Assembly (NCBI GenBank): GCA_016932785.1
Contig: JAFGCJ010000003.1
Span: forward strand, 1 to 38,970
DNA length: 38,970 nucleotides
Direction of reading: 5' to 3'
DNA from: Candidatus Dojkabacteria bacterium
GTDB lineage: Bacteria > Patescibacteriota > Dojkabacteria > SC72 > JAFGCJ01
A program made the translations under genes and the position numbers. The notes beneath the pieces are model-generated. The model ran no database searches. It was not told where the DNA came from and saw nothing but the letters and a program-made list of their open reading frames with translations. Positions 29,691 to 31,255 of the stretch are shown piece by piece; position 1 is the first letter of the stretch; every line of letters begins with the position of its first letter.

Positions 29691-31244
29691 ATGAAATATC
29701 TCGCATATTGCAGAAAAAGCTCAGAAAGCTCCGAGGCTCAAGCTCTCTCACTACCAGCTCAGGAACGAGAAATGAAAGAGCTCGCAATACGTGAAAACCT
29801 TGGTCTAAAGGCCATTCTTCAAGAAAGTAAGTCGGCAAGGATACCAGGAAAAAGACCCGTATTTACAAAAATGCTAGAAGAAATTCGAAGTGGCTCAGCT
29901 CAAGGGATTCTTTGTTGGCATGTAAACAGGCTTGCACGAAACTGGAAGGACGCCGGAGAACTTATGCAAATGCTTACTGACAACATCCTCAAAGAAATCA
30001 TTACACCAGAAAGAAGAATTACAAGTAGCAATACGAACGATATCCTTCTAGGCGTAGAGTTCGGACAGTCCTCGCAATACTCGAAGGAGCTAAGTCAAAA
30101 CGTTAAAAGAGGAATCAGAGAAAAGATAGCCAGAGGCCAATTCTGTGGAAGAGCCCCATACTTCTACATCAACACAGGCACAAGCAAAATGAACAAAAAC
30201 ATCGGACCCGATCCTAAAACCGCACACTACTACGAAGAATGGATCGACTTCGTAATAAAAACAAAAGCTAGCTACAGAAAAGCAACCAAGTGGCTAAATG
30301 ACAAGGGATTAAGAACCCGAAAAGGAAAAAAATTTCTAAAGAGCACAGTACAGAAAATGCTCAACAACAGCACCTACTGTGGAATACAGCGATTTGGCAA
30401 CTTTCCAGAGAACCACGGAACTTGGAAGCCACTCATCAGCAAGAAAAAATTCCAAGAGCTTCAGGAGATACTTGGTGAAAAGAGAAAACCAAGATTTTAC
30501 TCACACACAAAAGGCTACAAAGGCCTAATGAAATGCGCTCACTGCGGTTGTGCAATAACAAGTACACACAAGATCAAGAATGGAAAAAGCTACATATACT
30601 ACCACTGCACAGGAAGACGAGGTAAGTGTCCACAACCTTACATAACTGAGGAAGAGCTTGAAAATCAGATATTTGAGAACATAACACAAATCGAAATTGA
30701 CAAAGAGACTCTCGATTACTGCATGAAATTAATCAAGGAAAAAGTTGCGGACGAAAACGATAGCTATGAAAAAAGGCGCTCTGATACCAATAAAGAACTT
30801 ACCAAAATCCAAAATATGCTAAACGAACTCCTTGATATGAGACTTAAAAAGGAAATGTCACAAGATGATTATGAGACAAAGAAACAAGAACTAATGGACA
30901 GCAAGGAAGAAATAGCATCAAAACAAAACGACAACGAGTTCAACCAAGAGCGATGGATAGAGAACTTAGAGAGTTTCATCAACACCTGTTTCAAGATCGA
31001 AAAAATATTTAATCAGGGTACTATCGACGAGCGGTCAGAACTGGTAAAGGCCGTCGGTCAGAACCTCACACTAGAAGACGGAAGACTAAACTGGACCTTT
31101 AAGAAACCTTGGTCTTACATGCTAATCGAGCAACCAGAAGAATTTGAAGACATGAACTCTGAAGAAAAGCGGACACTATGGTGGGCGCAGGTGGACTCGA
31201 ACCACCGACCCCGGCTTTATAAGAACCGTGCTCTAACCGGCTGA
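29691..31244 (+). CDS. Large serine recombinase (resolvase, recombinase, zinc-ribbon and coiled-coil domains)
   Basis: AYCRKSS, SLPAQ, ESKSA, RPVF, VNRLARN, APYFY, CAHCG..YYHC..C. The last 22 codons overlap the tRNA antisense. Confidence 0.95.
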   Translation: MKYLAYCRKSSESSEAQALSLPAQEREMKELAIRENLGLKAILQESKSARIPGKRPVFTKMLEEIRSGSAQGILCWHVNRLARNWKDAGELMQMLTDNILKEIITPERRITSSNTNDILLGVEFGQSSQYSKELSQNVKRGIREKIARGQFCGRAPYFYINTGTSKMNKNIGPDPKTAHYYEEWIDFVIKTKASYRKATKWLNDKGLRTRKGKKFLKSTVQKMLNNSTYCGIQRFGNFPENHGTWKPLISKKKFQELQEILGEKRKPRFYSHTKGYKGLMKCAHCGCAITSTHKIKNGKSYIYYHCTGRRGKCPQPYITEEELENQIFENITQIEIDKETLDYCMKLIKEKVADENDSYEKRRSDTNKELTKIQNMLNELLDMRLKKEMSQDDYETKKQELMDSKEEIASKQNDNEFNQERWIENLESFINTCFKIEKIFNQGTIDERSELVKAVGQNLTLEDGRLNWTFKKPWSYMLIEQPEEFEDMNSEEKRTLWWAQVDSNHRPRLYKNRALTG

Positions 31245-31255
31245 GCTATGCGCCC
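31179..31255 (-). tRNA. tRNA-Ile(UAU), integration target
   Basis: GGGCGCA acceptor, anticodon arm CGGTT CT TAT AA AGCCG, T-arm GGTGG TTCGAGT CCACC, 3' TGCGCCCACCA. Confidence 0.95.

What the first reader, a model, noticed from the sequence alone, without database searches (positions are those of the whole stretch)
31140..31255. att core lies inside the recombinase gene, so integration swaps its C-terminus and its Trp codons encode the tRNA CCA end
Seen: the integrated ORF ends WWAQVD-SNHRPRLYKNRALTG*, read antisense through the tRNA. Joining the core to the arm at 24576 (excised circle) gives WWAQVD-DVGKFFKFNICTVIPVFQSNHMRPCTIG*. Joining it to the arm at 23041 gives WAQVD-DVGKWLRFNIYIIKLRFESGSNVLHTIGLQIQLW*. 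Both arms stay open and align without gaps (DVGK..FNI......F.S......TIG), which suggests protein-level selection. TGGTGG supplies the tRNA's ..CCACCA end, whereas the other two cores are followed by TTTTTT on the tRNA strand. Inference: the alternative C-termini could control directionality or stability in place of a separate RDF.
Basis: partly seen in the sequence, partly recalled or inferred. Interest (0 to 1): 0.72.

Follow-up and report, generated by a model that had tools for sequence, protein, structure and literature searches.

The report
Integrase gene cut by its attP
A small mobile island sits at the very end of a tRNA-Ile gene and its serine-integrase gene runs across its own insertion site, so insertion likely swapped the enzyme's short helical tail for 15 residues read off the back of the tRNA, which would turn the enzyme down after integration; the layout is family-wide and has published precedents.

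Summary
Observation confirmed. A large serine recombinase (29691-31244, +) ends inside tRNA-Ile(TAT), read antisense. Two copies of a 15-bp block (23026, 24561) are followed by open arms of 34 and 28 codons. The layout is family-wide: 85 of 108 tRNA-adjacent relatives share the frame, and natural arm-tailed relatives end W-x4-D-x-V-R-T-F.

In a related clade the tail is selected as protein (65 of 65 arms open; pN/pS 0.34 beyond the binding site). V-R-T also doubles as a T-loop-mimic DNA motif.

Corrections:
- The window's two arms show no synonymous bias (pN/pS about 1), so their alignment is DNA homology.
- The crossover likely lies at the acceptor end.
- The encoded CCA is likely dispensable.
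- 'No RDF' is untested: a conserved SpoVG-like gene lies upstream.

Best reading: an Mx8-like self-attenuating integrase (0.5). A serine precedent is in print (Dehalococcoides DsiB at ssrA). This scan's notes list the same design in at least 12 other genomes.

The parts
29691..31244 (+). Large serine recombinase, 517 aa, integrated form; last 15 residues read antisense from the tRNA
   Evidence: model pLDDT <50 and mostly coil for residues 484-517
31179..31255 (-). tRNA-Ile(TAT), the target gene; the only tRNA-Ile(TAT) call in the genome
31179..31181 (+). Trp codon = antisense of the encoded CCA end; element-borne (P' side) if the crossover is at 31182 or later
31182..31196 (.). 15-bp block shared by all three junctions (tRNA positions 73 to 59); crossover inferred near 31183-31184
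   Evidence: family register
24558..24586 (+). Proximal junction (6621 bp from the tRNA end): shared block plus P half-site with the T-loop-mimic motif shifted 5 bp outward
24576..24662 (+). Arm tail, 28 codons + stop, in the recombinase frame
23023..23051 (+). Distal junction (8156 bp from the tRNA end), identical to the proximal one over these 29 bp
23041..23145 (+). Second arm tail, 34 codons + stop
23023..24557 (.). 1535-bp integrase-less module between the two junctions (ORFs 23350-23964 + and 24090-24536 -, no family hits)
29129..29485 (+). SpoVG-like gene directly upstream of the recombinase, conserved in close relatives; candidate regulator or RDF (untested)
29585..29672 (+). Conserved structured leader with two overlapping stem sets before the recombinase start
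27285..28433 (+). Accessory ORFs: 107 aa (weak terminase-small-subunit hit, E 0.0014) and 250 aa (no family hit)
24722..26897 (.). Cargo: 255-aa ORF (+), 231-aa ORF (-), DUF3800 / PADLOC PDC-M04A protein (-)

Best explanation
The recombinase gene spans the island's own attachment site, so the free circle would make an enzyme ending in a short amphipathic helix, while the integrated copy makes the same folded core with a disordered tRNA-antisense tail and is likely less active, which would stabilise the island (Mx8-like attenuation). Shown: the layout, both tail types in natural relatives, family-level selection on the arm peptide, and an intact core in both forms. Inferred: crossover near tRNA positions 72-71; the arm is dual-coded (half-site for the enzyme plus helix); full activity returns after rare excision, when a new island inserts in tandem and donates its arm, or in trans. 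Either arm here could serve: excision to 24558 gives a 6.6-kb circle, to 23023 an 8.2-kb circle. The Trp/CCA overlap is likely a by-product of register, not a requirement.
For: 85 of 108 tRNA/tmRNA-adjacent relatives have the T-loop in the window's frame. tRNA-side tails run 1-68 codons past the crossover, with no conserved end visible. Arm tails share one motif. Arms located by an inverted repeat and the tRNA, not by their own content, are open for at least 12 codons in 65 of 65 cases, against 38 and 30 in the other frames and a shuffle mean of 30.6, max 42. Their pN/pS is 0.34 at codons 9-14 against 0.8-1.0 in the other frames, and Phe10 uses both TTT (36) and TTC (22). A natural arm-tailed relative models the tail as a helix (490-504); the window's integrated tail is coil. 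A related clade keeps an inverted spare attP that re-attaches the arm tail; one flipped copy was seen (L250). The sister element L041 has a D-V-G-N-M-L arm. Precedents.
Against: No activity data exist. The window's two arms show pN/pS 1.0-1.2. They score poorly (-0.2, -8.9; family median 21.5) on a protein profile from the inverted-repeat clade, though well (16.0, 16.6) on a DNA profile from other relatives. The selection test comes from a clade apart from the window's (tree), and kin are not independent. The tail helix has pLDDT only about 50-60 on a low-confidence linker, so no docking site is predicted. R7 uses only CGA/AGA, so part of the motif is DNA-constrained. No excised circle or empty site of this element was seen.
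Confidence: 0.5

Rival explanations
1. The tail does nothing in this lineage: the gene simply runs over its att site, the motif is a DNA recognition sequence read in frame, and both forms work alike.
For: Window arms pN/pS about 1. V-R-T is a copy of the T-loop antisense word at a fixed 17 bases from the crossover, and the 5-bp shift matches the known attP/attB geometry. The core fold is complete by about residue 480 in both models.
Against: 65 of 65 open arms, synonymous bias beyond the half-site, and a conserved Phe outside the predicted binding region. A clade maintains a perfect inverted copy of the gene end joined to the arm.
Confidence: 0.2
2. The tail is a built-in directionality switch: the arm form integrates and the tRNA-tail form excises, so no separate RDF is needed.
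For: The tail changes exactly with the recombination state. It follows the zinc-ribbon/coiled-coil region in sequence, which controls direction in solved systems.
Against: A conserved SpoVG-like neighbour and other accessory genes are available as regulators. Relatives that re-attach the arm tail by inversion while integrated fit 'arm form needed to get out' better than 'tRNA form excises'. Integrated tRNA-tail copies are the common assembled state, so they are not strongly excisive.
Confidence: 0.15
3. The swap acts on protein or mRNA level only: the tRNA-derived end destabilises the protein, or convergent tRNA transcription silences the gene, and the helix is a stabilising cap.
For: The integrated tail is predicted disordered. 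The gene converges on a tRNA whose T-run is displaced by integration. A conserved attenuator-like leader suggests expression is tightly limited.
Against: No conserved terminal degron is visible in either tail type; lengths vary widely and several relatives stop 1-2 codons after the crossover.
Confidence: 0.15

Closest known systems
Dehalococcoides ssrA-specific genomic islands, serine integrase DsiB (McMurdie et al. 2011, PMC3146451; passages read)
   Same: About 540-aa serine integrase on the reverse strand whose 3' end always overlaps attL and reads into the target RNA gene; tandem islands; the authors propose full function only on the circle or downstream of an adjacent island.
   Different: Target is ssrA, not tRNA; six-gene module with DsiA/ParB/Mom not seen here; insertion placed in the T-loop with a 20-bp repeat; no conserved tail peptide described. 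Sequence relationship to DsiB not tested.
Myxophage Mx8/Mx9 integrase (review PMC6070905, passages read; primary paper PMC93897 not held)
   Same: attP lies inside int; integration gives a new 3' end that alters but does not abolish activity, acting as a switch on excision.
   Different: Tyrosine recombinase of a phage (class as listed in PMC4383910). The new tail here is antisense tRNA, and only the last 11-30 residues change.
Archaeal suicidal SSV/pTN3 integrases (PMC8371274, passages read)
   Same: att site inside the gene; the intact gene acts as the directionality control.
   Different: Tyrosine enzymes split into two inactive halves. Here catalytic, recombinase, zinc-ribbon and coiled-coil parts stay together.
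Phage large serine integrases (LI/A118, Bxb1, phiC31, SPbeta; PMC3783163 passages; fold matches)
   Same: Domain order and fold; distal motif shifted 5 bp between P and B half-sites.
   Different: In those systems the gene is not known to be rewritten by integration (recalled) and a separate RDF drives excision.

Membership tests
Large serine recombinase (serine integrase) | Resolvase + Recombinase + zinc-ribbon domains with coiled coil | tested here: met
   Pfam; models; best PDB fold matches of the relative's model are serine integrases
Large serine recombinase (serine integrase) | Distal half-site motif shifted about 5 bp between attP and attB | tested here: met
   Window and frame-0 relatives shift 5; other registers 4 or 6; rule. 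Binding itself not tested.
Large serine recombinase (serine integrase) | Unidirectional attP x attB reaction reversed by a separate RDF | not testable with these tools
   No assay possible with these tools
DsiB-type ssrA islands | Integrase 3' end overlaps attL and reads antisense into the target RNA gene | tested here: met
DsiB-type ssrA islands | Target is ssrA | tested here: not met
   Target is tRNA-Ile(TAT); ARAGORN calls a tmRNA target for relatives L205 and L216
DsiB-type ssrA islands | Six-gene module with DsiA, ParB, Mom | tested here: not met
   No such Pfam hits among the element's ORFs
DsiB-type ssrA islands | Belongs to the DsiB clade by sequence | not tested
   No DsiB sequence was fetched
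Mx8-type integrase switch | Tyrosine recombinase | tested here: not met
   Serine family
Mx8-type integrase switch | Integrated form has altered activity | not testable with these tools
   Needs an assay
SSV/pTN3 suicidal integrases | Gene split into two large inactive halves | tested here: not met
   Only residues after about 500 change; core modelled whole
   None in the window; window lies in another clade

The most novel reading that the evidence does not exclude
The arm-encoded helix is a built-in cofactor that sets activity or direction for a very large family of tRNA-targeting serine integrases. Integration, tandem insertion and gene inversion would then each rewrite the enzyme in place of an RDF, and most database entries for this family would be the switched-off form.
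Probability: 0.25. Interest if true: 0.75.

Novelty: new variant of a known kind. Interest (0 to 1): 0.45.

Why it matters
If the tail matters, this is recombination-state feedback written into a serine integrase's own sequence. It also has a practical side: integrases mined from integrated islands would carry the wrong C-terminus and could be scored inactive. The arms predict attP sites and native ends for many enzymes aimed at conserved tRNA ends. The principle is already in print for Mx8 and, as a hypothesis, for DsiB, so the gain is breadth, the dual-coded motif and a direct test.

Tried and rejected
1. Crossover at the T-loop end of the 15-bp block: disfavoured. The two arms are identical through register position 29 and then diverge, which fits a half-site starting near position 6. 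In relatives, identity with the tRNA ends at position 6 in 20 of 29 candidate arms and never beyond 10; that scan required positions 4-6 to match. Inverted repeats found without that requirement mostly end at about the same place. Not excluded for this element.
2. Window-arm alignment as proof of protein selection: rejected.
3. The reverse-strand 'control' failed as a control, because many hits were real inverted attP copies.
4. The 4/5/6-bp motif shifts first looked like frame-driven selection, but the distance from crossover to motif is constant, so they do not separate DNA from protein constraint.
5. Complex prediction of recombinase residues 265-485 with the SpoVG-like protein: no answer.
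6. Reads: one DNA holder that may be the source, no RNA holder listed; only short pieces laid and no informative joint.
7. No second element with this arm sequence in 400 other phylum genomes or in viral contigs.
8. A single-protein scan of genome contigs found nothing.
9. No Rfam family for the leader.
10. Literature searches listed no paper on a tRNA-targeting serine family with this tail. DsiB came from the scan's notes. Subscription papers and supplements were not seen.

Full report
What is there. The window is contig C5 of a 1.06-Mb genome; titled relatives of its recombinase are mostly Patescibacteria. ORF 29691-31244 is a large serine recombinase that runs head-on into tRNA-Ile(TAT) at 31179-31255 on the other strand. 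A 15-bp block spanning tRNA positions 73-59 recurs at 24561 and 23026 and nowhere else in the genome. The DNA after each copy continues the recombinase frame for 28 and 34 codons. This defines a 6621-bp island plus a 1535-bp integrase-less module. A second recombinase in the same genome (C3:261444-262967) ends the same way through tRNA-His.

Family evidence. I gathered loci. Of 181 recombinase ends examined, 108 distinct ones abut a tRNA or tmRNA 3' end with a locatable T-loop. Of these, 85 share the window's frame, 83 are also open up to the CCA position, and 64 of those 83 have TGG there. About 20 tRNA types are used. Ends that do not abut a tRNA mostly finish in W-x4-D-x-V-R-T-F/Y. Inner members of tandem arrays carry such an arm from the outer element (L123, L044). 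The sister element L041 (55% identical) also has two arms, one reading D-V-G-N-M-L. So both tail types exist in nature and the window's arms belong to the arm type.

Where the crossover is. Counting the first base of the CCA codon as 1, identity between arm and tRNA ended at position 6 in 20 of 29 candidate arms, at 7-8 in 8 and at 10 in 1 (positions 4-6 were required to match). Inverted repeats found without that requirement mostly end at about the same place. In the window the host side matches only from position 4, and the two arms are identical through position 29 and then diverge. I infer a crossover near 31183-31184, with positions 7-18 being a P half-site that matches the tRNA. The V-R-T codons copy the T-loop antisense word 5 bp further out, the shift that Rutherford et al. 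describe for the zinc-ribbon motif (PMC3783163, passages). The tail swap is the same wherever in the block the cut falls.

Is the arm selected as protein? In a related clade, yes. Among 181 genes with flanks (four rows are counted twice), 95 carry an inverted copy of the gene end upstream of the start, joined to the arm. This gave 65 distinct arms located without using their content. All 65 are open for at least 12 codons in frame, against 38 and 30 in the other frames and a shuffle maximum of 42. In 15 disjoint pairs pN/pS is 0.34 at codons 9-14, against 0.80 and 0.99 out of frame. Arg7 uses only CGA/AGA, so the motif is also DNA-constrained. Against this: that clade is separate from the window's and kin are not independent. 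The window's own two arms give pN/pS 1.0-1.2 and fit that clade's protein profile poorly (-0.2, -8.9, median 21.5), though they fit a DNA profile from other relatives (16.0, 16.6). Their ungapped alignment is DNA homology that continues past one stop.

Structure. A natural arm-tailed relative (P0008) models the tail as a helix at 490-504 with pLDDT about 50-60 after a low-confidence linker. The window's integrated form is mostly coil below pLDDT 50 from residue 484. The core through about 480 is whole in both, so this is trimming, not splitting.

CCA. The element supplies CCA where the other junctions have TTT. But only 13 of 50 tRNA calls in the genome encode CCA, a PolyA_pol-family gene is present, and many tRNA-Ile(TAT) genes of relatives lack CCA. 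In 23 paired loci TGG is on the element side in 14 and on the host side in 9. The overlap is real but probably not required.

RDF. Nothing here shows there is none. A SpoVG-like gene (the Pfam family is on a minority of members in the feature hits, so a lead) lies just upstream and recurs in five close relatives, in L232 and in the genome's own His element. A conserved structured leader precedes the start codon in 8 loci.

Mechanism. Most likely the arm helix is needed for full activity, so the integrated gene makes an attenuated enzyme and the island is stable until a circle, a tandem neighbour or a copy in trans provides the full form (0.5; inferred). The inverted-copy clade fits this: 82 rows have the tRNA tail and one is flipped, with the arm tail and the tRNA upstream (L250). 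Rivals: neutral tail (0.2), directionality switch (0.15), stability or expression only (0.15).

What is known. McMurdie et al. 2011 (PMC3146451, passages) describe the same overlap for the serine integrase DsiB at ssrA and propose function only on the circle or behind a neighbouring island. Mx8 (review PMC6070905, passages) and archaeal suicidal integrases (PMC8371274, passages) are tyrosine precedents. The Islander paper stated that serine integrases were not known to target tRNA genes (PMC4383910, passages), and the main text of a large LSR survey has no occurrence of 'tRNA' (PMC10083194, term search; supplements not seen). Searches listed no paper on this tRNA-targeting family or its tail motif; subscription journals are not covered. 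The scan's own notes list the tail swap in at least 12 other genomes and the inverted copy in several; these are unchecked AI notes, and the DsiB lead came from them.

Verdict. Real, family-wide, a new variant of a known kind; function untested. Interest 0.45.

Noticed in passing
window 29585-29672; L040, L041, L044, L045, L046, L074, L159 upstream of the recombinase: Conserved leader after a TATAAT box: a long interrupted hairpin and a 12-16-bp stem that overlaps it, often followed by a T-run. Stem sequences differ between loci while pairing is kept; z -6.1 in the window; no Rfam match. Looks like an attenuator or switch. Not seen in L042, L043, L191, L200 or the genome's own His element.
   Followed up: partly
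L089, L092, L124, L133, L140, L243-L269 and others: A separate clade flanks the recombinase gene with inverted repeats, mostly 70-190 bp, ending at the crossover (a spare inverted attP); 95 of 181 rows, one flipped (L250).
   Followed up: partly
window 29129-29485: SpoVG-like gene conserved directly upstream of the recombinase in close relatives; role unknown.
   Followed up: partly
window 23023-24557: Integrase-less 1535-bp module starting with its own P arm. Its minus-strand ORF starts about 25 bp from the junction, so it may once have been read from the tRNA. Multi-arm arrays also occur in L041, L058, L064, L133, L145.
   Followed up: partly
G000 C3:261444-262967 (L296): Second recombinase of the family ending antisense in tRNA-His, with a weak candidate arm 7.4 kb away; the genome has two tRNA-His genes.
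   Followed up: partly
window 31179-31255: tRNA-Ile with a UAU anticodon, only two CAT tRNAs, and no TilS-family hit over cut-off in this 89% complete genome: AUA is likely read by this single tRNA.
   Followed up: partly
window 26232-26897 and 27285-27608: DUF3800 / PADLOC PDC-M04A cargo and a weak terminase-small-subunit-like ORF suggest a defence-carrying, possibly satellite-like island.
   Followed up: no
L044:17990-18130: A 47-bp duplication at the tRNA-His end truncates the recombinase tail there.
   Followed up: no
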